Source: Bacteroidota bacterium (GTDB lineage Bacteria > Bacteroidota > Bacteroidia > NS11-12g > UBA955). Taken from it: 50,157 nt of DNA. Positions 5,727 through 38,932 of this stretch are shown piece after piece; positions within the stretch are counted from its first letter, which is position 1; every line of letters starts with the position of its first letter. The notes beneath the pieces are model-generated. The model did no database searches and had not been told where the DNA came from. It saw only the letters and a program-made list of their open reading frames with translations. The translations under genes and the position numbers were made by a program. Where the stretch lies: positions 1 through 50,157 of the forward strand of contig JAURIG010000003.1 of NCBI GenBank assembly GCA_030832905.1. The letters run 5' to 3'.

Positions 5727-7061
5727 ATGAAAGAAAAAATTGCCATCATTGGGGGCGGATTAAGTGGATCATTATTGGCCATTTGCCTAGCTAAAAGAGG
5801 ATTTACTGTAGACCTTTTTGAAAGAAGAGGCGACATTAGAAAAGGACAAGCAGAAGCAGGCAGATCCATCAACTTAGCCCTTTCTACCAGAGGCATTGAC
5901 GCTTTAGAAAAAGTAGGCTTAGCAGACAAAGTACTCAACGATGCCATTCCAATGAATGGTAGAATGATGCACAGCACTCAAGGGGAATTGACTTACCAAC
6001 CATATGGCAAACAAGGCCAATACATTAATTCTGTTTCAAGGTCTTTATTGAATATTAAATTGTTAGAATTAGCTGATGCTTATGAGAATGTCAATTTGTA
6101 TTTTAAACACAAGTGCACCGATGTTAATTTAAACACCAACACAGCTGTGCTTGTAGACGAAAACAGCAACAGCAAAACCATCACAGCTGATATCATTTTT
6201 GGCTCAGATGGTGCTTGGTCAGCGGTGAGAAATGAAATGCAAAAAACCAATCGTTTCACTTATTCTCAAACCTATGAAAACTATGGTTATAAAGAATTGG
6301 AAATTGTACCAGGACCAAACAGCAGCTTTCAAATAGAAGAAAACGCTTTACACATTTGGCCAAGAGGCGAGTTCATGATGATTGCTTTGCCAAATCCTGG
6401 CGGCAACTTTACTTGCACGCTTTTCTTACCTTACGAAGGGCCTAATAGTTTTGAAACTTTAAAAACAGATGAAACAGTTGAAGCCTTCTTTAAACAGTAT
6501 TTTGCTGATGCGATTAGCTTGATGCCAAACTATATCGAAGACTTTAAAACCAATCCAACTGGCAGCTTAGCCACCATTCGCTGCAACCCATGGGTACACA
6601 AACACTTTGCCCTTATCGGCGATGCTGCTCACGGTGTCATTCCATTTTACGGACAAGGTATGAATTGCAGTTTTGAAGATGTTAAAGAGCTTGACGAAAT
6701 CATTGAAGCACATTACCCAAATTGGGATAACATCTTACAATTATACCAAGAGGCCCGCATTAAAAACGCCAATGCCATTGCTGATTTGGCTTGTAAAAAC
6801 TTTGTTGAAATGAGAGACTTGGTGGGCAGACCAGAATTCATGCGCTTCAAAAAAATAGAACATGATTTGTGTGAATACTATCCAGACTTATACAAGAGTC
6901 AATACGAGTTGGTGTCGTTTGCAAAAACGTCTTACAAATATGCTCAAGACATGGGGTATAAAAACGAAGCTTTGATTGCCCATATCATGCAAAATAATTT
7001 AGACAAAGACCTTCAAAATGCTGAACGCATCAAGCCTTTAATTCAACAATACATCGCTTAA
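5727..7061 (+). CDS. kmo: Kynurenine 3-monooxygenase
   Basis: GGGLSG FAD motif, GRSINLALSTRG, ALHIWPRG.FMMIALPN, IGDAAH.VIPFYGQGMN. Confidence 0.92.
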   Translation: MKEKIAIIGGGLSGSLLAICLAKRGFTVDLFERRGDIRKGQAEAGRSINLALSTRGIDALEKVGLADKVLNDAIPMNGRMMHSTQGELTYQPYGKQGQYINSVSRSLLNIKLLELADAYENVNLYFKHKCTDVNLNTNTAVLVDENSNSKTITADIIFGSDGAWSAVRNEMQKTNRFTYSQTYENYGYKELEIVPGPNSSFQIEENALHIWPRGEFMMIALPNPGGNFTCTLFLPYEGPNSFETLKTDETVEAFFKQYFADAISLMPNYIEDFKTNPTGSLATIRCNPWVHKHFALIGDAAHGVIPFYGQGMNCSFEDVKELDEIIEAHYPNWDNILQLYQEARIKNANAIADLACKNFVEMRDLVGRPEFMRFKKIEHDLCEYYPDLYKSQYELVSFAKTSYKYAQDMGYKNEALIAHIMQNNLDKDLQNAERIKPLIQQYIA

Positions 7062-7062
7062 A

Positions 7063-7827
7063 CTAGAGGGCCGCCATAACGCCGTCCCAAAGGGCTCTTC
7101 GGCTTTCTAACGCTCTAATAACATAGCGCTCTGCTTCCGCCCATTTTAATGGGTCATTCCCGCATAAATCTTCCGTCATAGCAATTGCTAAATGGCTGTG
7201 GTGATCGCCATCCACTTCAATATGTCTTTCTAAATAGTATTTAAAGACCGCTAATTGATTCGGTAATTTCTCTGACAAATCTTTAACCAAGGCCATGAAC
7301 ATTTCTGGAATAAGGTCTTCGCGACCAAATGTAAACACAGCTGCAATCACATGCGGTTTTTGGCTATTGACCACTTCAAACGTAAAACTCAAAAAAGACT
7401 TAACCGACTCGGGAATATTGGATTCAGACAAGGCCTGATCAAAAGATTTACCGGTTTGTATTGCTTGCATCAAGGCATGAACAGCAGAGGCATCTGCGCC
7501 CACTTGTTGCATGGCTTTAAGATACAATTCAAAATGACTCATTCTCTGACCCTGCTCATCAACATCAGATTCTTCTCCAACAACAATTTCATTGATTAAA
7601 AATCTGGTATTGGCATTGCCAACTGGCCTCCAAGGCAAGCTGGTGCAGGTTAAATGGATTTGTAAGGCTTTTAAAAGTGACATGAAATCCCAAACAGCAA
7701 ACACGTGGTGTTGCATGAGTTTTTGAATATCTTCAAGGCTTTGAACCCTATTGTACAAAGGGTGCTGAACAACGGTTTGTCTGACGGATTGTATATTGTC
7801 TTGTAAGTGTTTAATTTCTGGTGTCAT
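7063..7827 (-). CDS. DUF3050 heme-oxygenase-like protein
   Basis: HVFAVWDFMSLLK, INEIVVGEESD, SHFELY, YYLERHIEVDGDHH. Confidence 0.88.
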   Translation of the reverse strand: MTPEIKHLQDNIQSVRQTVVQHPLYNRVQSLEDIQKLMQHHVFAVWDFMSLLKALQIHLTCTSLPWRPVGNANTRFLINEIVVGEESDVDEQGQRMSHFELYLKAMQQVGADASAVHALMQAIQTGKSFDQALSESNIPESVKSFLSFTFEVVNSQKPHVIAAVFTFGREDLIPEMFMALVKDLSEKLPNQLAVFKYYLERHIEVDGDHHSHLAIAMTEDLCGNDPLKWAEAERYVIRALESRRALWDGVMAAL

Positions 7828-7860
7828 CTGAATTTTGGAACAAAAATAACCCGCATTTGT

Positions 7861-9084
7861 TCAATACAAAGTCTTGATTTTGTCAAAAAAATCTGGAAAA
7901 GATTTGGAGACATCTTCTATGGCATCTAATTGCACTTGACCAATAAAAGCCAATACACTACATGCCATGATTATGCGGTGATCATTAAACGCTTTCACTT
8001 GAAACAATGGATTAGGATTAACCCCATGCGTGACTTTCAAAGTTTGCGCATCTGCAGACAACTCATAGCTTAAACCATAGGGCGCTAAGTTGCTGAGCAT
8101 TGCCTGCAAGCGATTGCTTTCTTTGTGTATCTGATGGGCCAAACCCGAAAACACAACTTGCCTTTGACTAACTGCGCACAAGGCCAACAAGACTGGAAAA
8201 AGATCTGGCGTTGAAGTCAAATCAAAATGCAACAAAGTCGATTCGATAGCAGCGCCTTGGGTTTTGAACACTTTTAAGCCAACTGGTGAATCAGCGCAAT
8301 GTACACCCCAAGCTTTCATGTATTGAGCAATAACGGCATCCCCTTGAGCTGAACTTAAAGATAAATTTGGCAAGCTAATTTCAGCCTGCTCAGATAAGGC
8401 AGCCCAGGCTAAAACAAAAGTTGCTGAACTCCAATCAGCCTCTATGGTTTTGGGCAAGTCATCAGCAAACAGATTTCTGGCAGAGACTTGAATTTGCTCT
8501 GGCTTTATTGGTTCTATTTTGGCTACAGACTTTAAGCACTGTTGAGTTAATTTGGTATAGCTTGATGAAACCGCTTGTCCAATACAGTTAATGACAAGTC
8601 CATGCTCGAAATAAGGCGCAATCAAGAGCAAAGCACTTAAAAACTGGCTGCTCTCATGCAACTCAATTTGAGTGGTTGTGGCTTGCCGATTAACCGCCTT
8701 TTTAACCCTCAATGGCAATTGATAAGCTTGCTCCAAAAACTCAAACTCAGCGCCCAAAATTTCCAGAGATTTCAACAAGGCTTTAATTGGTCTTTCAGAC
8801 AAACGCTTACTCCCCAATATGACCCCATCAATACCTTTAAAAGCGGCATAGGCCAAAAACAACCTTAAGGGAGTGCCGGCATCTTTAAAATCGTATTCGG
8901 TTGATTGATGACTCAGGTGTTGATGCAAACATTTAACATCATTGCTCCAAGCGGCATCATAGGGATATAAAGCCTGCCCCTGCAAAGCTTGTAAAATCAA
9001 TAAACGATTGGCAATACTCTTAGATACAGGCAAGTTCAAACTTCCCTTTAATCGAATAGATGGTATTGGTCCTAAGCTGTACAT
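7861..9084 (-). CDS. aroA: 3-phosphoshikimate 1-carboxyvinyltransferase (EPSP synthase)
   Basis: SKSIANR, DAGT..R, RPI, SSQFLSALL, KESNR, DHRI.M, KSFPDF. Likely ATG at 9084, just after a TATCTTTG box at 9092-9099 (-). Confidence 0.9.
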   Translation of the reverse strand: MYSLGPIPSIRLKGSLNLPVSKSIANRLLILQALQGQALYPYDAAWSNDVKCLHQHLSHQSTEYDFKDAGTPLRLFLAYAAFKGIDGVILGSKRLSERPIKALLKSLEILGAEFEFLEQAYQLPLRVKKAVNRQATTTQIELHESSQFLSALLLIAPYFEHGLVINCIGQAVSSSYTKLTQQCLKSVAKIEPIKPEQIQVSARNLFADDLPKTIEADWSSATFVLAWAALSEQAEISLPNLSLSSAQGDAVIAQYMKAWGVHCADSPVGLKVFKTQGAAIESTLLHFDLTSTPDLFPVLLALCAVSQRQVVFSGLAHQIHKESNRLQAMLSNLAPYGLSYELSADAQTLKVTHGVNPNPLFQVKAFNDHRIIMACSVLAFIGQVQLDAIEDVSKSFPDFFDKIKTLY

Positions 9085-32720: not shown

Positions 32721-32730
32721 ACTTTGCTAG

Positions 32731-32804
32731 TGATCCCGAAGGGATTCGAACCCCTGACCCACAGATTAGAAATCTGTTGCTCTATCCAGCTGAGCTACGA
32801 GACC
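32731..32804 (-). tRNA. tRNA-Arg(TCT)
   Basis: GGTCTCG/CGGGATC acceptor stem, TAGCTCAGCTGGATAGAGC D arm, ACAGA-TT TCT AA-TCTGT anticodon arm, GGTTCGAATCC T loop. No encoded CCA. Confidence 0.96.
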
Positions 32805-32870
32805 TTGTTTAAAAAAAAAGGCAGTCACAATTGATGCAAATTTGCAAACTGTCTACTGCCAATTGTTTAG

Positions 32871-32944
32871 TCGGGGTGGCAGGATTTGAACCTACGACCT
32901 TCTGCTCCCAAAGCAGACGCGATACCGGGCTACGCTACACCCCG
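32871..32944 (-). tRNA. tRNA-Pro(TGG)
   Basis: CGGGGTG/CACCCCG acceptor stem, TCTGC-TT TGG GA-GCAGA anticodon arm, GGTTCAAATCC T loop. Confidence 0.96.
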
Positions 32945-33861: not shown

Positions 33862-33948
33862 GGTGAGGTGACTGAGAGGCCGAAAGTAGCAGTTTGCTAA
33901 ACTGCCGTACGGGAAACTGTACCGAGGGTTCGAATCCCTCCCTCACCG
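33862..33948 (+). tRNA. tRNA-Ser(GCT)
   Basis: GGTGAGG/CCTCACC acceptor stem, GCAGT-TT GCT AA-ACTGC anticodon arm, long variable arm GTACGG-GAAA-CTGTAC, GAGGG-TTCGAAT-CCCTC T arm. Confidence 0.97.
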
Positions 33949-34333
33949 CTTTAAAACATAAAAAAAAGCCCGCCAAGGGCTTTTTTTTATGCAACAAATT
34001 TTCCTAGGAGGGATAAGAACCCGAGCAGAGGGTTCGAGCCGAGCTTGCGAGACCACGAAGTAATCCCTCCCTCACCGCAATTAAAATTAAAATAAAACCC
34101 GCTAAGGGTTTTTTTTATGCCCATTTCCTTTGGAGGGATAAGAACCCGAGCAGAGGGTTCGAGCCGAGCTTGCGAGACCACGAAGTAATCCCTCCCTCAC
34201 CGCTTTAAGACATAAAAAACAGCCCGCCAAGGGCTTTTTTTATGCAACAAATTTCCCTAGGAGGGATAAGAACCCGAGTAGAGGGTTCGAGCCGAACGAA
34301 ATGAAACAACATTAGCAATCCCCTTGGTTCACT
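33933..34333 (+). repeat. tRNA-3'-end tandem array with ~125-130 bp period (two complete units, one divergent unit)
   Basis: The 72-bp core GGAGGGATAAGAACCCGAGCAGAGGGTTCGAGCCGAGCTTGCGAGACCACGAAGTAATCCCTCCCTCACCGC is identical at 34007-34078 and 34132-34203. Its first 36 bp recur at 34260-34295 with one mismatch. Each core is preceded by a terminator hairpin. Confidence 0.95.
33957..33991 (+). terminator. tRNA-Ser terminator (symmetric), repeated in each array unit
   Basis: CAT-A run-GCCC-GCCAA-GGGC-T run-ATG. Confidence 0.8.
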
Positions 34334-34496
34334 TTGTGATTTATTATAAATCTTATAAATATAAGCTTTAAATTATTTAAAATTCATTTTTTACAATAAT
34401 GTAAATTAATTATGAATATGAATTAAAATAAAAAATAAATTACTTTTGTTGTTTGTTTATGTAAAATTATTATTTTTGCATAAAATATATTAAAAC

Positions 34497-34953
34497 ATGA
34501 TTAAACAAATTACATTAACTTTATTACTAGTTTTAACGTTTAAAACTTCTCATGCAAGGCCTATTATCAATAAAACAGTTAATGATTGTGGTAAAAACCT
34601 GTTAGGCCAAGTAATGTGTGGTCATGTAAAACAAGAATTAGTTATTTATCAATGTGGAACAGTTGCTGAGCCCAAAAACTGTGAAGGGTGGGTACTAACA
34701 TGTTCTGGCTCAGGAACAACAGCCTATTGATGCAAATTCTCAATCTATAAATGATGCTATTGATGATTATTGGGGTAATTTTCTATTGGACTTAGCCAAT
34801 AATTATATAGACAATAATGTCCTAACTGGAACACATTCGGAAACTGTTGTGATTTCTGATCAAACAGTTAGAATTTATACCGTTGTTTGGAGTATTACTA
34901 TTGATGTGAACGGTAATGCAAACGGTTATGTAAGTGTTTCATGTAATGTCTAA
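34497..34953 (+). pseudogene. Secreted Cys-containing small protein split by a +1 frameshift
   Basis: The signal-peptide ORF stops at 34730. The +1 frame is open 34699-34953 (PIDANSQSINDAIDDYWGNFLLDLANNYIDNNVLTGTHSETVVISDQTVRIYTVVWS...CNV*), and its stop overlaps the next ATG at 34946. Confidence 0.7.
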
Positions 34954-36049
34954 ATCATACAATTTTAAATATTGTGTTCTGTTATTGCTTTTTATTGCTT
35001 TTAAAGCAATTGAAAGTCATGCTACACAGAATTTGAAGTTTAAATACAATAAAGAAGATTTATTATACACATTTAAAAATAAGGCGGCTTCATTGACAAA
35101 ATGTATTGATAATAACTTATACATTTTAGAAAGCCAAGAAACGTTAATAGTTAAGGTTTCAAAATTTAACTTTGAAACAACTAAGTTGTCAGAATGGACA
35201 ATTGATTTGAGTCATTTAGAGTATGAAGGTATTATTGATTTTTTTATTGAAGACTCTAAATTCTATTTTCTATGTGACAATGGTACACGAATTTGTTGTT
35301 TTGATTTTGTTCAAAATAAAGAAGTTTTTAATTTTCAAATAGATAATCCTAGTTCAGTGCTTTTTGAATATACGAATATCCATGTTTATGATAAATGCAT
35401 TTACTTAGTCTTCTCGATTGATATTTCAAGTAAATCAACCGATAAACGAAATTTATTTATAGACAAATACGACTTTAAATCAAATCAAATCATTCCCTTA
35501 ATTAAACGTAAATTGAATGCCAATGTTTTTTCTATTACAAATTATTTGAATTATACGTTTAATAAAAACTTACTTTATTGTAATGATGTCTTAACTGGCG
35601 AATTAAACAACTATAATTTATTAGATTCCTTTCCTTGCCCAACAAAGCTATTTGTCAATGAATTTGATTTGAGTTTATATAAAACAAACAGAATTTCTGT
35701 TTTAGAAAATAGTTTTTCAAAAACGAATTCTAATTTATTATTAGATAGTTTAAGGTATTTTTTTGACAATGAAATAACTTCTACTTGGATAAGTACCAAT
35801 AATGGATTTGTTTGCACTCTTGACAAGCATCCATCGGATTCCTGTGTGGCAAGAATTAGAGCTATGGATATCGCAAACAATCAAAAATATTCTGTTATTT
35901 TGAGCGACAGTAATTCGAACTGTATACAACAAAAAGTTTATTTAAATTATCAGTATTTTGATGGAAAGACTTTCATTCAAGTTTATAATTATTTCGATCC
36001 TAAAACTAGTCAATCAAGTTTAAGGTACAAAGTTTTTGCCTCTGATTAA
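34946..36049 (+). CDS. Secreted hypothetical protein, possibly a beta-propeller
   Basis: Signal peptide ending ..IESHA and repeated short strands (NNLYIL, SKFYFL, KCIYLV, NLLYC). Start moved to ATG 34946. Confidence 0.65.
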   Translation: MSKSYNFKYCVLLLLFIAFKAIESHATQNLKFKYNKEDLLYTFKNKAASLTKCIDNNLYILESQETLIVKVSKFNFETTKLSEWTIDLSHLEYEGIIDFFIEDSKFYFLCDNGTRICCFDFVQNKEVFNFQIDNPSSVLFEYTNIHVYDKCIYLVFSIDISSKSTDKRNLFIDKYDFKSNQIIPLIKRKLNANVFSITNYLNYTFNKNLLYCNDVLTGELNNYNLLDSFPCPTKLFVNEFDLSLYKTNRISVLENSFSKTNSNLLLDSLRYFFDNEITSTWISTNNGFVCTLDKHPSDSCVARIRAMDIANNQKYSVILSDSNSNCIQQKVYLNYQYFDGKTFIQVYNYFDPKTSQSSLRYKVFASD

Positions 36050-36079
36050 ATTTAAATATTGATTAAAGATAAAACAGAA

Positions 36080-36156
36080 CCCGCCAAGGGCTTTTTTTAT
36101 GCAACAAATTTTCCTAGGAGGGATAAGAACCCGAGCAGAGGGTTCGAGCCGAGCTT
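36080..36156 (+). repeat. Truncated distal copy of the tRNA-Ser array unit
   Basis: 77 bp matching 33969-34046 except for one T in the T-run. It ends after GCCGAGCTT. Confidence 0.95.
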
Positions 36157-36289: not shown

Positions 36290-38932
36290 ATGAACATCAA
36301 AGATTGTTTCAAATTCAGAGACATTAAAATTTATGGCAGCACCGAGTGGTTGGCCAACAATGCCAAGCGTTACCGTTCAGTTTTTGACGAACAAGAAGCC
36401 GCATTCATCTATTGCGAATTCTCCTTTTTCAACAAAAAATACGACGAGGAAAATTGGGATATCAGACTGCATTTAAAATGTTTGAATGAACAGGACGAAG
36501 AAATTTGCGATCTAAACTGTGACAGACCAATAGACAAACGCGACAACATCGTATACATACGCGAAGGCTGGGGCGTTAAAACACCCTCTACCTACTGGAA
36601 AGCCGGCACCTACCGTTGGGAGGCCTATCTAAACGAGGAACTCATTGCCACAAAAAGCTTCTACGTAGAACGCCAAGGCTTGGTAAAGAACGGCATCAAC
36701 CCCTACTTCAAAATCGACACCCTCAAATTGTACGAAGGCCCAGACGCCAACCTACAAGAGATCGATAGAAAATATTATATCGGCTTCAATGCCCTCAGTA
36801 CCCGTTACATTTGGATAGAATTCAATGCCAAAAACCTAACGCGTAAAAGCACTGACTGGGCCTGCGAACTCAGCTTCAACTTCAAAACCGCTTCAGGACA
36901 TTTAAAAGGTGCTGCTACAAAACTCTTCTTCATCAAACCTGACGAAGACCAATTCACAACCAGCGTAGGTTGGGGCAGCGACATGCTAGGCACCTGGGCA
37001 AGAGGTCGCTATTACATTGAAATCATTTTCATGGATGAACTCATTGCCAGCGTACCATTCGAAGTAGGCGACGACTATGTTGATGCCATAGAAGAAGACT
37101 TTATGCCACTAGTTCAATCAGGCTTCTACTTTGATGCAGACATGAGCCTTGAGGAAGATGAATTAGACAACATCGCTGCAGAAACCAAAGACTTCAACCC
37201 ACCAGCCAAAGACTCCATAGACAATGTCATGAAAGACCTTGACGATATGATTGGACTTGGCAGCATCAAAGAAAAGGTAAGAGAATACAGCAATTACTTA
37301 AAATTCATAGCCCTCAGAAAAGAGAAAGGGGTATCAGACAACGAACACATCAACCTACACGCCGTATTCAAAGGCAACCCTGGAACAGGTAAAACCACTG
37401 TAGCCAGAATGCTAGGCCGCATATACAAAGAACTAGGCCTCTTAAAGAAAGGCCATGTACATGAAGTAGACAGAGGCGACTTGGTAGCAGAATTCATAGG
37501 TCAAACCGCGCCTAAAACCAAAGAAGCCATTAAAAAAGCAAAAGACGGCATACTCTTTATTGACGAAGCCTACTCGCTTGCAAGAAAAGACGATGACAGC
37601 AAAGACTTTGGCAAAGAAGCCATCGAGATCCTCTTAAAAGAACTCAGTGACGCGCAAGACATTGCCATCATTGTAGCTGGTTACCCAACAGAAATGAACA
37701 CCTTCTTGGAATCTAATCCAGGTTTAAAATCAAGGTTTAACATGACCTATGACTTCCCAGATTATTTACCACAAGAACTCATTAAAATTGCTGAATATGC
37801 TTGCGACAAACGCGGCGTTAAACTCAGCAAAGACGCCAGCGAAGACTTATACAAACACCTCGTTGACGCCTACAGAGACCGCGACAAATTCTTTGGCAAT
37901 GCGCGTATGGTCAATTCCCTAATCGATGAATTCAAAATGAATTTAGGTTTGAGGGTCATGAAAACCAAAGACCCAAAACAACTCACCGTTGAATCACTCA
38001 GCACCATTGAGAAAGACGATATCGAAAAGGCCTACTTGAAACACAAAGGTGACGTTGCAGACATTCCAATTGATGAAGAACTCCTTAAAGAATCAGTTCA
38101 AAAACTTAAAAAGCTTACTGGTTTAGCCCAAGTAAAAGCAGACATAGACGAACTCATCAAACTGGTAAGGTATTACAAAGAAACAGGTAAAAACCCAAGA
38201 GAAATCTTCTCTTTGCACTCTGTATTTACAGGTAACCCAGGTACAGGTAAAACCACTGTTGCCCGCATATTGGCTCAAATCTACAAAGCCCTTGGCATAT
38301 TAGAAAGAGGCCACTTAGTAGAATGCGACCGTCAATCATTGGTGGGAGGATACATTGGGCAAACCGCCATCAAAACAGCTGAGTTAGTTGACAAAGCAAT
38401 GGGTGGTGTATTGTTCATTGACGAAGCCTACGCCCTCACTGAAGGTGGAGGCAACGACTATGGCAAAGAAGCGGTTGAAACCTTACTCAAACGCATGGAA
38501 GATCAACGCGGCAAATTCATTGTTATAGCAGCAGGTTACACCCAAAACATGGAACGCTTCTTAGAAGCCAACCCTGGTTTAAAATCAAGATTCGACAGAA
38601 CCTTCAAGTTTGAAGACTTCAACCCTGAAGAATTATTAGGCATAGCCATACAACAACTCGCTGACCACAACATCACACCAGACGACGCTGCGAAAAACCA
38701 ACTTAAAGCCTACATAGAATACTTGTACAAGAAACGCGACAAGTACTTTGGCAATGGTAGAGCCGTTAGAAAAGTGATTGAGGAAGCTGTAAGAAATCAA
38801 CACTTGCGCCTCAGCGAAATGGCCAAAAGCAAGCGCAGTGCTAAAACCATTGGCACGCTATTGTTTGAAGACGTAAAAGAATTTACCCCAGACAACATCC
38901 CAACTCAAAAAACAGGCATCGGATTTAAATAA
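36290..38932 (+). CDS. Double AAA+ ATPase of the CbbX/SpoVK/EccA family with a tandem N-terminal beta domain
   Basis: Two copies each of H.VF.GNPGTGKTTVAR, LFIDEAY.L, AGY and NPGLKSRF, and FGNAR/FGNGR. Confidence 0.9.
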   Translation: MNIKDCFKFRDIKIYGSTEWLANNAKRYRSVFDEQEAAFIYCEFSFFNKKYDEENWDIRLHLKCLNEQDEEICDLNCDRPIDKRDNIVYIREGWGVKTPSTYWKAGTYRWEAYLNEELIATKSFYVERQGLVKNGINPYFKIDTLKLYEGPDANLQEIDRKYYIGFNALSTRYIWIEFNAKNLTRKSTDWACELSFNFKTASGHLKGAATKLFFIKPDEDQFTTSVGWGSDMLGTWARGRYYIEIIFMDELIASVPFEVGDDYVDAIEEDFMPLVQSGFYFDADMSLEEDELDNIAAETKDFNPPAKDSIDNVMKDLDDMIGLGSIKEKVREYSNYLKFIALRKEKGVSDNEHINLHAVFKGNPGTGKTTVARMLGRIYKELGLLKKGHVHEVDRGDLVAEFIGQTAPKTKEAIKKAKDGILFIDEAYSLARKDDDSKDFGKEAIEILLKELSDAQDIAIIVAGYPTEMNTFLESNPGLKSRFNMTYDFPDYLPQELIKIAEYACDKRGVKLSKDASEDLYKHLVDAYRDRDKFFGNARMVNSLIDEFKMNLGLRVMKTKDPKQLTVESLSTIEKDDIEKAYLKHKGDVADIPIDEELLKESVQKLKKLTGLAQVKADIDELIKLVRYYKETGKNPREIFSLHSVFTGNPGTGKTTVARILAQIYKALGILERGHLVECDRQSLVGGYIGQTAIKTAELVDKAMGGVLFIDEAYALTEGGGNDYGKEAVETLLKRMEDQRGKFIVIAAGYTQNMERFLEANPGLKSRFDRTFKFEDFNPEELLGIAIQQLADHNITPDDAAKNQLKAYIEYLYKKRDKYFGNGRAVRKVIEEAVRNQHLRLSEMAKSKRSAKTIGTLLFEDVKEFTPDNIPTQKTGIGFK

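What the first reader, a model, noticed from the sequence alone, without database searches (positions are those of the whole stretch)
33933..34333. tRNA-Ser is followed by an array of structured units built from its own T-arm and 3' end
Seen: each 72-bp core has three parts. (i) GGAGGGATaaGAACCC, the reverse complement of the tRNA T-arm (GGAGGGATtcGAACCC) with a TC>AA change. (ii) GAGGGTTCGA, the 5' half of the T-arm. (iii) A ~25-nt insert in the T-loop, then ATCCCTCCCTCACCGC, the exact tRNA 3' end. The core self-pairs (GGAGGGAT/ATCCCTCC and GAACCC/GGGTTC). Cores 1 and 2 are identical while the linkers differ. The linker hairpin shows a compensatory change (GCCC..GGGC versus ACCC..GGGT). Established: tandem repeats carrying tRNA 3' ends exist (e.g. 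E. coli tyrT), and integrative elements duplicate tRNA 3' ends. Neither, as far as I know, explains an inverted T-arm plus a T-loop insert. Inference: a small non-autonomous element or recombination site that targets the tRNA T-loop and expands in tandem.
Basis: partly seen in the sequence, partly recalled or inferred. Interest (0 to 1): 0.85.

Follow-up and report, generated by a model that had tools for sequence, protein, structure and literature searches.

The report
RtT-like repeat array behind tRNA-Ser
The repeats behind this serine tRNA gene are a compact relative of the RtT element long known behind the tyrosine tRNA genes of E. coli, and units of the same build follow many different tRNA genes in at least seven bacterial phyla.

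Summary
I also found a fourth, cut-off copy 1.75 kb downstream. They do. Annotated E. coli RtT sRNAs have the same build: a 5' arm complementary to the tRNA 3' strand, GA, a GAACC/GGUUC hairpin, GA, an insert, then the tRNA 3' end. A 21-base pattern taken from this genus retrieved at least 119 stretches in public genomes. The gammaproteobacterial ones score as Rfam RtT (61-131 bits; cut-off 45). A covariance model built without the window or its genus hits the window units (43.3 and 42.1 bits) and E. coli RtT (52-71 bits). Rfam's own model gives the window only 26.2 and 21.9 bits. Units follow 12 tRNA amino-acid types and, in one relative, tmRNA. The closing helix always matches the local tRNA. 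No recombinase tracks the units, and the pattern is absent from 2.9 million viral contigs. Contigs from four metatranscriptomes bridge the tRNA, the terminator and unit 1. Verdict: a new short variant of a known but functionally unexplained family. Interest is moderate; the wide spread may be undescribed.

The parts
33862..33949 (+). tRNA-Ser(GCT). CCA is not encoded. The last 17 nt (33933-33949) are the repeated tRNA 3' end.
   Evidence: ARAGORN; Rfam tRNA 55.6 bits
33950..34006 (+). Linker 1 with a two-way terminator-like hairpin (arms 33957-33971 and 33977-33991).
   Evidence: I3
34007..34078 (+). Unit 1 core (72 nt). P1 pairs 34007-34014 with 34063-34070. AA at 34015-34016 stands where relatives have GA. 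P2 pairs 34017-34022 with 34030-34035. GA at 34036-34037. P3a pairs C34040-G34051, G34041.A34050, A34042.G34049 and G34043-C34048, closing a CUUG loop. The tRNA 3' end copy is 34063-34078.
   Evidence: (R1 43.3 bits, E 7.3e-8)
34079..34131 (+). Linker 2, a second linker type, with hairpin ACCC..GGGT (34094-34112).
34132..34203 (+). Unit 2 core, identical to core 1.
   Evidence: 100%; R1 42.1 bits, E 1.4e-7
34204..34259 (+). Linker 3, same type as linker 1, with hairpin at 34221-34235.
34260..34332 (+). Unit 3. It diverges after GAGCCGA (34295) and its tRNA-end copy is decayed (AATCCCCTTGGTTCAC).
   Evidence: (R1 32.8 bits, E 2.1e-5, full model length)
34333..36064 (+). A 1.75-kb segment present in this genome but not in sister genome G015. 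It lies between unit 3 and the cut-off unit 4. ORFs at 34497-34730 (77 aa) and 34934-36049 (371 aa) have no Pfam family.
36065..36156 (+). Linker 4 (terminator-like hairpin) plus cut-off unit 4. The half-core 36117-36156 ends at GAGCTT. G015 has the same junction to the downstream AAA-ATPase gene.
   Evidence: 95% to linker 1 + core; R1 21.9 bits, E 0.0074

Best explanation
The array consists of short (72-nt core) members of the RtT family, the tRNA-trailer module first known from the E. coli tyrT operon.

Build of each unit:
- It ends in a copy of the last 16-17 nt of the tRNA it follows.
- A 5' arm pairs with that copy (P1).
- Next comes a two-base junction: GA in most relatives, AA here.
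- Then a GAACC/GGUUC hairpin (P2), a GA, and a small hairpin carrying a second tandem G.A motif (P3a, capped here by a CUUG loop).

How it most likely works:
1. The units are transcribed from the tRNA promoter by read-through of the leaky terminator hairpins. This is inferred. It is known for E. coli RtT and hinted at here by RNA-library contigs.
2. Because each unit ends like the tRNA, the same 3'-end machinery probably trims it. In this organism, which does not encode CCA, that would be RNase Z-type cleavage and CCA addition. The product would be a small stable RNA that presents a tRNA-like 3' strand on a P1-GA-P2 rod. This is inference; I put it at about 0.35. As such it could engage a factor that reads tRNA 3' ends.
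3. At the DNA level the 17-nt tRNA-end repeats and the roughly 90-nt linker-plus-half-core repeats are substrates for unequal recombination or slippage. That expands and contracts the array, and it can gain or lose what lies between copies. This is inferred from the comparison with the sister genome; about 0.7.

Confidence by step: family identity about 0.85; RNA expression about 0.6. The physiological role is unknown, as it is for E. coli RtT.
For: Family identity:
- RtT is the only Rfam family besides tRNA that covers both intact units: 26.2 bits (E 0.031) and 21.9 bits (E 0.35).
- In the 6 gammaproteobacterial loci tested, 11 places score as Rfam RtT at 61.2-130.8 bits, above the cut-off of 45.
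- The printed Rfam consensus has the same order of parts.
- E. coli RefSeq annotates the matching places as 'RtT sRNA, processed from tyrT transcript' next to tRNA-Tyr. 4741 of 5426 genomes have a match, and the sequence shows the same architecture.
- Model R1 was built from 35 units, none from the window or from the genus's G-handle loci. It hits window units at 43.3, 42.1, 32.8 and 21.9 bits and annotated E. coli RtT at 52.7-71.1 bits.

Structure:
- P1 and P2 on 35 units: 82.3% of cells paired against 70.2% in shuffles (0 of 500 reach it) and 27-51% when the partner is slid. 8 of 12 P1 pairs change on both sides.
- On 15 Bacteroidota units, P3a pair 48-55 reads G-C in 9 and A-U in 4; one P2 pair shows C-G to U-A once.
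- A Serratia variant has Watson-Crick UC where the others have the tandem GA.
- A preprint passage reports a tandem GA motif in RtT.
- Plus-strand folds have z = -2.48 (window), -4.35 (L061) and -3.70 (E. coli), against -0.54, -2.65 and -1.75 for the minus strand.

Tie to tRNAs:
- 53 of 80 scan loci pass a strict test: a same-strand tRNA upstream and a copy of its 3' 13-mer after the motif. They cover 12 amino-acid types.
- In the genus, units follow Ser-GCT, Ser-TGA, Ser-GGA and tmRNA, each with the matching arm.

Expression:
- One contig from each of 4 metatranscriptome runs (4 studies), 150-196 nt with 1-5 differing letters, spans 33874/33914 to 34044/34078. That is tRNA 3' half, terminator and unit 1.

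Array dynamics:
- G015 has the units in a different order and number, and lacks the 1.75-kb segment.
Against: - Rfam's curated cut-off for RtT is not reached by the window units (26.2 and 21.9 bits against 45). It is also not reached by the units in the one other Bacteroidota locus and the one Gemmatimonadota locus tested.
- The seeds of R1 were collected with a pattern derived from this genus, so part of R1's score on the window is built in.
- Strand tests are inconclusive. Inside P1, G.U and A.C mismatches are equal (7 and 7). Inserts fold better in sense in 50 of 75, but whole units fold better in sense in only 27 of 79.
- RNAalifold on 15 units recovered P2 but not P1.
- Each unit here is preceded by a terminator-like hairpin with a U run, which should limit read-through.
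- The RNA evidence consists of contigs from RNA libraries. These can contain DNA and cannot show RNA ends or strand.
- P1 in the window is only 8 bp and leaves an 8-nt 3' tail. E. coli P1 also stops inside the acceptor strand. A full acceptor/T-arm mimic is therefore not a conserved feature.
- The first junction is AA, not GA, in the window.
- Cut-off copies are common (36117-36156; G000:C195; L133). The distribution is patchy: 8 of 33 genomes of the genus and 5 of 150 others of the phylum. Both would suit a dispensable or selfish repeat as well.
Confidence: 0.7

Rival explanations
1. A small non-autonomous mobile DNA element, or a recombination site, that targets the tRNA T-loop or 3' end, copies target sequence into both of its arms and multiplies in tandem. 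Any RNA would be incidental.
For: - Every unit is bounded by direct repeats of the tRNA 3' end, like attL and attR.
- Units occur behind 12 tRNA amino-acid types and tmRNA in at least 7 phyla, but patchily: 8 of 33 genomes of the genus and 5 of 150 others of the phylum.
- Both arms match the local tRNA in this genus and in E. coli.
- Cut-off and decayed copies are frequent.
- G.U does not exceed A.C in P1, as expected if the complementarity stems from how the unit arose and not from selection on RNA.
- The same tRNA genes carry other inserted DNA: a 43-kb island with an integrase in G051, and a second unit type.
Against: - No enzyme tracks the units. G000 and G002 each hold one PF00589 match (about 312-315 aa) and G015 holds two. 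Y1_Tnp was not found in 4 of the 8 unit-bearing genomes, but was found in 20 of the 25 without units.
- No real tRNA has an interrupted T-loop.
- The pattern gave 0 matches in viral contigs. In E. coli, 15056 places are chromosomal and 18 are on plasmids.
- Outside this genus and Enterobacterales the GGUUCGA strand is often not a copy of the local T-stem.
- Non-tRNA parts are conserved across phyla and carry compensatory changes in P3a. That points to a constrained single-strand fold.
- E. coli RtT is annotated as a processed RNA.
Confidence: 0.17
2. The units are scars or miniaturised remains of integrase-borne genomic islands that integrated one after another into the tRNA 3' end. Each left its arm of attP plus a displaced tRNA 3' fragment.
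For: - Islands restore the tRNA and leave a displaced fragment (Islander paper; only the start of its abstract was seen in the listing).
- In G051:C11 a 43-kb stretch lies between tRNA-Ser(TGA) and a tyrosine integrase gene that abuts a displaced 3' end. An RtT-like unit and a B-type unit follow directly.
- The last tRNA-end copy of several arrays is the most decayed.
Against: - The junction next to the G051 integrase has a different sequence from the unit.
- In 53 of 80 loci the unit sits within 8-95 nt of the tRNA in most cases, with nothing else inserted.
- Clean excision would leave no arm behind.
- The same 5' domain is conserved from Enterobacterales to Bacteroidota. That is not expected of the arm sites of unrelated integrases.
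- The pattern gave 0 matches in viral contigs.
Confidence: 0.07
3. A one-off local duplication or an assembly artefact with no wider meaning.
For: The window comes from a fragmented genome (242 contigs, 85.5% complete). Identical 72-nt cores are hard to assemble from short reads.
Against: - An independent assembly, G015, has the same array.
- RNA-library contigs from 4 studies cover the tRNA-to-unit-1 junction.
- Homologous units exist in many genomes.
Confidence: 0.01

Closest known systems
RtT RNA (Rfam RF00391; rtT/rttR repeats of the E. coli tyrT operon)
   Same: - It lies directly behind a tRNA gene on the same strand, often in tandem.
- Each unit ends in a copy of the tRNA 3' end.
- The order of parts is the same: 5' arm complementary to the T-stem 3' strand and acceptor 3' strand, GA, GAACC..GGUUC hairpin, GA, then GCCGAG..CGAGAC with a second tandem G.A.
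- One covariance model hits both.
   Different: - The core here is 72 nt against about 126-132 nt. The later hairpins of the E. coli form are missing or reduced to 2 bp.
- Rfam's cut-off is not reached.
- The unit follows tRNA-Ser, not tRNA-Tyr or tRNA-Lys.
- Every unit has its own terminator-like hairpin.
- CCA is not encoded.
- The first junction is AA.
Displaced tRNA 3' fragments (attR) of tRNA-integrating genomic islands, and integrase-less att-flanked elements such as the CIMEs of Streptococcus (names recalled)
   Same: Direct repeats of the tRNA 3' end bound each unit. True islands use the same tRNA genes in this genus.
   Different: - There is no integrase.
- The units are only 115-180 bp.
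- The interior is conserved and structured across phyla.
- They are not found in viral contigs.
Small RNAs cut from tRNA operon spacers and trailers, for example 3'ETS-leuZ of E. coli (recalled, not checked here)
   Same: It would be a by-product of tRNA transcript processing that gains a life of its own.
   Different: No pairing target is known. The defining trait here is the copy of the tRNA's own 3' end.
REP/REPIN-RAYT systems and IS200/IS605-type hairpin elements
   Same: Short palindromic repeats in intergenic DNA.
   Different: Y1 transposase presence does not follow the units. The units are tied to tRNA 3' ends and are not dispersed.

Membership tests
RtT RNA (RF00391) | Score at or above Rfam's gathering cut-off (45 bits) | tested here: not met
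   The window units score 26.2 and 21.9 bits. Gammaproteobacterial relatives found with the same pattern score 61.2-130.8 bits.
RtT RNA (RF00391) | Lies directly downstream of a tRNA gene on the same strand and ends in a copy of that tRNA's 3' end | tested here: met
   The same holds in E. coli.
RtT RNA (RF00391) | Shared fold and sequence blocks: P1 with the tRNA 3' strand, tandem GA, P2 GAACC/GGUUC, GCCGAG..CGAGAC | tested here: met
   R1 gives 43.3 and 42.1 bits on the window and 52.7-71.1 bits on annotated E. coli RtT. The window has AA in place of the first GA.
RtT RNA (RF00391) | Released as an RNA from the tRNA primary transcript | tested here: inconclusive
   Four RNA-library contigs bridge the tRNA, the terminator and unit 1. 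Contigs cannot show RNA ends, strand or the absence of DNA.
Integrase-mobilised att-flanked element | A tyrosine or serine recombinase at or near the element, or one that tracks it across genomes | tested here: not met
   None in the window. There is one PF00589 match in G000, on another contig. Unit-bearing genomes G002, G004 and G015 have 1-2 matches. Serine recombinases were not searched.
Integrase-mobilised att-flanked element | Full-size relatives (phage or island) that carry the same arm next to attP | tested here: not met
   0 pattern matches in viral contigs. The island end in G051 has a different junction. Only an exact pattern was used.
REP/RAYT or IS200/IS605-type hairpin element | A Y1 (HUH) transposase present wherever the repeat is present | tested here: not met
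   PF01797 was not found in G000, G002, G004 and G005, which is 4 of the 8 unit-bearing genomes. It was found in 20 of the 25 genomes without units. G000, G002 and G005 are 82-86% complete.
Hammerhead ribozyme | Conserved core CUGANGA ... GAAA around three stems (recalled) | tested here: not met
   The units read GAUGA-[P2]-GAG; the window reads GAUAA-[P2]-GAG. No ribozyme family appears among Rfam matches up to E = 10.

The most novel reading that the evidence does not exclude
RtT-type modules are one family of tRNA-matched trailer elements that spreads among tRNA genes and between phyla. Each copy re-derives its closing helix from whichever tRNA or tmRNA it lands behind. That implies an undescribed copying or recombination step at the tRNA T-loop or 3' end. 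Alternatively, it implies a conserved RNA role as a mimic of the tRNA 3' strand that forces the match. Either way the class is far wider than the enterobacterial RtT entry suggests.
Probability: 0.3. Interest if true: 0.75.

Novelty: new variant of a known kind. Interest (0 to 1): 0.5.

Why it matters
RtT has been an orphan since its description in E. coli: it is annotated in thousands of genomes with no agreed function. This window shows a stripped-down 72-nt version in Bacteroidota. Following it up shows the same 5' domain behind 12 kinds of tRNA and tmRNA, in Gemmatimonadota, Verrucomicrobiota, Lentisphaerota, Omnitrophota, Marinimicrobia, Bacteroidota, and Alpha-, Gamma- and Zetaproteobacteria.

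This has three uses:
- It defines a minimal conserved core (P1, two tandem G.A motifs, P2, P3a) for experiments.
- It shows that Rfam's model misses most of the family.
- It poses a clear question: how does each copy come to match its own tRNA?

The arrays are also likely hot spots for changes in tRNA-gene copy number and for gain or loss of neighbouring DNA.

My searches found no paper describing this spread. The library lacks most subscription journals, so this is not proof that none exists.

Tried and rejected
Tools and searches that gave nothing:
- Literature. Searches found only passing mentions of RtT: passages read. The search listings show RtT in version 1 of the CoCoNuT preprint, but the versions I could read hold no such word. 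Supplements are closed, so Fig. S7 of the CaCoFold preprint, which is said to show the RtT tandem GA, was not seen. Boesl & Kersten 1991, Egan & Landy 1978 and work on tRNA integration sites are recalled only.

Ideas considered and dropped:
- Hammerhead-like core: dropped (see membership test).
- Kink-turn: the order helix-GA-bulge-helix is the reverse of a k-turn. This is reasoning from recalled consensus only.
- IS110 bridge RNA or guide idea: no DEDD transposase is nearby, and the 371-aa ORF has no Pfam family. The family itself was not searched.
- Integron-like cassette idea for the 1.75-kb segment: only one such case exists. G015 lacks the 371-aa gene with this query. Deletion or insertion between the 92-nt direct repeats explains it.

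Tests that were inconclusive or weak:
- Strand-of-function tests by G.U versus A.C counts and by sense versus antisense folding energy were inconclusive.
- RNAalifold on 15 Bacteroidota units found only P2, because bulges shift the 5' arm in the MAFFT alignment.
- Shuffle z-scores for the GCCG..GAGAC segment were weak (median 0.6; 11 of 58 below -1.5). The energy model gives little credit to tandem G.A.
- RNA contigs: no contig of runs X1-X4 lay on 34105-34500. This is no evidence of absence.
- The 12-mer GGTTCGAGCCGA in 125 genomes of the family gave 33 places. 19 are units, all in the window's genus. 14 lie in sequence without the unit architecture. The reversed-pattern control gave 13.
- Of the 80 scan loci, 27 failed my strict test. 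Two are chance hits in coding-like sequence (L089, L126). Most of the rest are cut by the locus end or have decayed ends.
- Rows dropped before counts: 6 of 88 units were dropped for N or length above 135 nt. The 82 kept were thinned to 39 at 80% identity or less. 35 of those 39 were used for A1; the window and three genus loci were left out on purpose.
Full report
WHAT IS THERE

tRNA-Ser(GCT) lies at 33862-33949 on the plus strand. It does not encode CCA. Behind it comes a repeat of period about 125 bp (33933-34295, 2.8 copies, score 567). Each period has four parts:
- the last 17 nt of the tRNA;
- a perfectly palindromic hairpin flanked by an A run and a T run, which looks like a terminator on both strands;
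- a short linker;
- a 72-nt core.

Cores 1 (34007-34078) and 2 (34132-34203) are identical. Their linkers belong to two clearly different types. Core 3 (34260-34332) diverges after GAGCCGA and ends in a decayed tRNA-end copy.

A fourth copy of terminator + linker + first 40 nt of the core lies at 36065-36156. It sits behind a 1.75-kb segment with two ORFs that have no Pfam family.

SISTER GENOME

G015:C25 has the same locus with two full units and the same cut-off last unit. That unit is joined to the same downstream AAA-ATPase gene. The linker types stand in a different order and the 1.75-kb segment is missing. The 371-aa protein is not found in G015 with this query.

So the array is real in two assemblies. 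It changes by gain or loss of whole units and of DNA between repeated parts.

THE SAME BUILD AT OTHER tRNAs OF THE GENUS

Units follow four kinds of gene in the genus:
- tRNA-Ser(TGA): G000:C195 (cut off), G015:C6, G002:C172, G004:C102 and G051:C11;
- tRNA-Ser(GGA): G005, G022, G051:C1 and G004:C92;
- tRNA-Ser(GCT): G051:C17;
- tmRNA: G003:C21.

In each case the 3' end of the unit is the 3' end of the local gene, and the 5' arm is its complement. In G004:C92 the tRNA has an unusual T-stem (AAGAG/CUCUU), and both P1 and P2 of the unit follow it. The insert varies from 25 to about 80 nt. The extra length is a hairpin placed between GCCGAG and CGAGAC.

Model R1 finds units in 8 of 33 genomes of the genus, 20 places in all. 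It finds them in 5 of 150 other sampled genomes of the phylum, all in one family and behind tRNA-Ser in the loci I read.

THE LINK TO RtT

Rfam gave only weak RtT matches in the window (26.2 and 21.9 bits; cut-off 45). I took a 21-base pattern from the genus units and scanned the species-representative genomes.
- By a strict test, 53 of the 80 loci have a same-strand tRNA just upstream and a copy of its 3' 13-mer after the motif.
- Two loci are chance hits in coding-like sequence.
- Most of the rest are cut by the locus end or are decayed.

The 53 loci cover Lys, Ser, Pro, Tyr, Arg, Glu, Cys, Gln, Gly, His, Asn and Val tRNAs. By their record titles they come from Enterobacterales and other Gammaproteobacteria, Alpha- and Zetaproteobacteria, Gemmatimonadota, Bacteroidota, Verrucomicrobiota (including Kiritimatiellales), Lentisphaerota, Omnitrophota and Marinimicrobia.

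In 6 gammaproteobacterial loci, 11 places reach Rfam's RtT cut-off (61.2-130.8 bits). The two units each in one Bacteroidota locus and one Gemmatimonadota locus do not.

E. coli genomes annotate the matching places as 'RtT sRNA, processed from tyrT transcript'. Reading the E. coli sequence shows the same order of parts:
- an arm complementary to the T-stem 3' strand and part of the acceptor 3' strand;
- GA, then a GAACCUU..AAGGUUC hairpin, then GA;
- an insert;
- the tRNA-Tyr 3' end.

A covariance model was built from 35 units. None came from the window or from the genus's G-handle loci. It scores the window units at 43.3, 42.1, 32.8 and 21.9 bits (E 7e-8 to 7e-3). It scores annotated E. coli RtT at 52.7-71.1 bits.

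One caveat applies. The seeds were gathered with a pattern taken from this genus, so the shared 21 bases are partly built into that score. The independent leg of the argument is that Rfam's own model accepts the gammaproteobacterial members of the same set.

STRUCTURE

On the 35-unit alignment, P1 plus P2 are paired in 82.3% of cells. Column shuffles give 70.2% (0 of 500 as high) and slid partners give 27-51%. 8 of 12 P1 pairs change on both sides.

P1 is thus rebuilt for each tRNA. It usually covers positions 59 to about 66-68 of the tRNA numbering and sometimes reaches the end of the acceptor strand.

The segment GCCGAG..CGAGAC reads as C-G, G.A, A.G, G-C around a variable hairpin. In the window the hairpin is just a CUUG loop. 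A Serratia variant has Watson-Crick UC in place of the GA. Among 15 Bacteroidota units the first hairpin pair is G-C in 9 and A-U in 4. A preprint passage also notes a tandem GA motif in RtT.

The plus strand of single units folds with better z-scores than the minus strand. Broader strand tests were inconclusive.

The 'T-loop insert' picture fits this genus and E. coli. In several phyla, however, the bases before GGUUCGA are not those of the local T-stem. P2 is therefore better seen as the family's own hairpin, of T-arm-like origin.

EXPRESSION

Twenty RNA or possibly RNA runs hold small shares of the stretch's sampled words. I laid four metatranscriptomes from four studies. Each has one contig of 150-196 nt with 1-5 differing letters that runs from inside the tRNA, across the terminator hairpin, into unit 1. 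These contigs end between 34044 and 34078.

This is a hint of read-through transcripts in close relatives and no more. Contigs cannot show RNA ends or strand, and RNA libraries can contain DNA.

MOBILITY AND ENZYMES
- The window has no recombinase.
- G000 and G002 have one PF00589 match each. G004 and G015 have two each.
- Y1_Tnp was not found in 4 of the 8 unit-bearing genomes and was found in 20 of the 25 others. Three of those four genomes are only 82-86% complete.
- The pattern is absent from 2.9 million viral contigs.
- E. coli places are chromosomal 15056 to 18.
- In G051, a 43-kb stretch with an integrase at its far end separates tRNA-Ser(TGA) from a displaced 3' end. An RtT-like unit and then a B-type unit follow. 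The same tRNA ends are thus used by true islands, but the island's junction differs from the unit.

READING

The units are compact RtT-family modules. The best-supported mechanism has four steps:
1. Co-transcription with the tRNA.
2. Folding into P1/P2/P3a with two tandem G.A motifs.
3. Maturation at the tRNA-like 3' end.
4. DNA-level expansion and contraction by unequal recombination between the tRNA-end repeats and the linker-core repeats.

How a unit comes to match a new tRNA is open, and so is what the RNA does. The patchy spread, the frequent decayed copies and the lack of a G.U excess keep a selfish-DNA reading alive (about 0.17).

NOVELTY

The kind is known: RtT, in Rfam and in RefSeq annotation. 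The following appear not to be described in the papers I could search:
- the short Bacteroidota form;
- the units behind tRNA-Ser and tmRNA;
- the spread over at least seven phyla and 12 tRNA amino-acid types.

That library is incomplete, and supplements were closed.

Noticed in passing
L013, L018, L021, L024, L032 (tRNA-Ser(GCT) loci of other genomes of the genus); also L061, L063, L066, L069, L191: A second kind of tandem unit ('B type', about 165-185 bp) follows tRNA-Ser genes in this genus. Each unit has the tRNA 3' end, a terminator hairpin, about 100 nt with a long-range inverted repeat, then ..GGGATCATGnAATA directly before the next tRNA 3' end copy. In G004:C92 the GGGAT part changes along with the local T-stem. 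It has no Rfam match at E up to 1.
   Followed up: partly
L062 (G051:C11), about 6600-8210; the tRNA is at G051:C11:82102-82187: A 43-kb stretch lies between tRNA-Ser(TGA) and a 377-aa tyrosine integrase (Pfam PF00589, E 7e-17). The integrase gene abuts a displaced tRNA 3' end. This is a genomic island stacked in front of an RtT-like unit and a B-type unit.
   Followed up: partly
L040/L067 (G003:C21), just after the tmRNA gene: An RtT-like unit (R1 47.3 bits) follows tmRNA with no terminator between them. It ends in a copy of the tmRNA 3' end.
   Followed up: partly
window 34333-36064: A segment specific to this genome holds a 77-aa ORF and a 371-aa ORF with no Pfam family. The 371-aa protein has only 32-35% identical relatives, in 3 of 32 other genomes of the genus, at other places.
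   Followed up: partly
window 36290-38932: An 880-aa protein with two AAA ATPase modules and AAA_lid_6 lies directly behind the cut-off unit. Sister genome G015 has the same junction.
   Followed up: no
window 32730-32944 (-) versus L023 and L027: tRNA-Arg(TCT) and tRNA-Pro(TGG) lie upstream on the opposite strand. In two genomes of a neighbouring family, tRNA-Ser(GCT), tRNA-Pro and tRNA-Arg form one co-oriented cluster with nothing behind tRNA-Ser. This suggests an inversion in the window's lineage.
   Followed up: no
window 33897-33948 (-): The Rfam family 'Plastid-psbl-rps4' matches the antisense of the tRNA-Ser 3' half (48.9 bits, below its cut-off of 68). The same match appears at tRNA-Ser in L013 and L032. 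It looks like a tRNA-antisense artefact of that model.
   Followed up: no
L189 (E. coli NZ_CP063473.1, tyrT region): In this strain two tRNA-Tyr genes are interleaved with five annotated RtT sRNAs. E. coli genomes hold 1-14 matching places, median 3. RtT copy number is therefore quite variable within one species.
   Followed up: no
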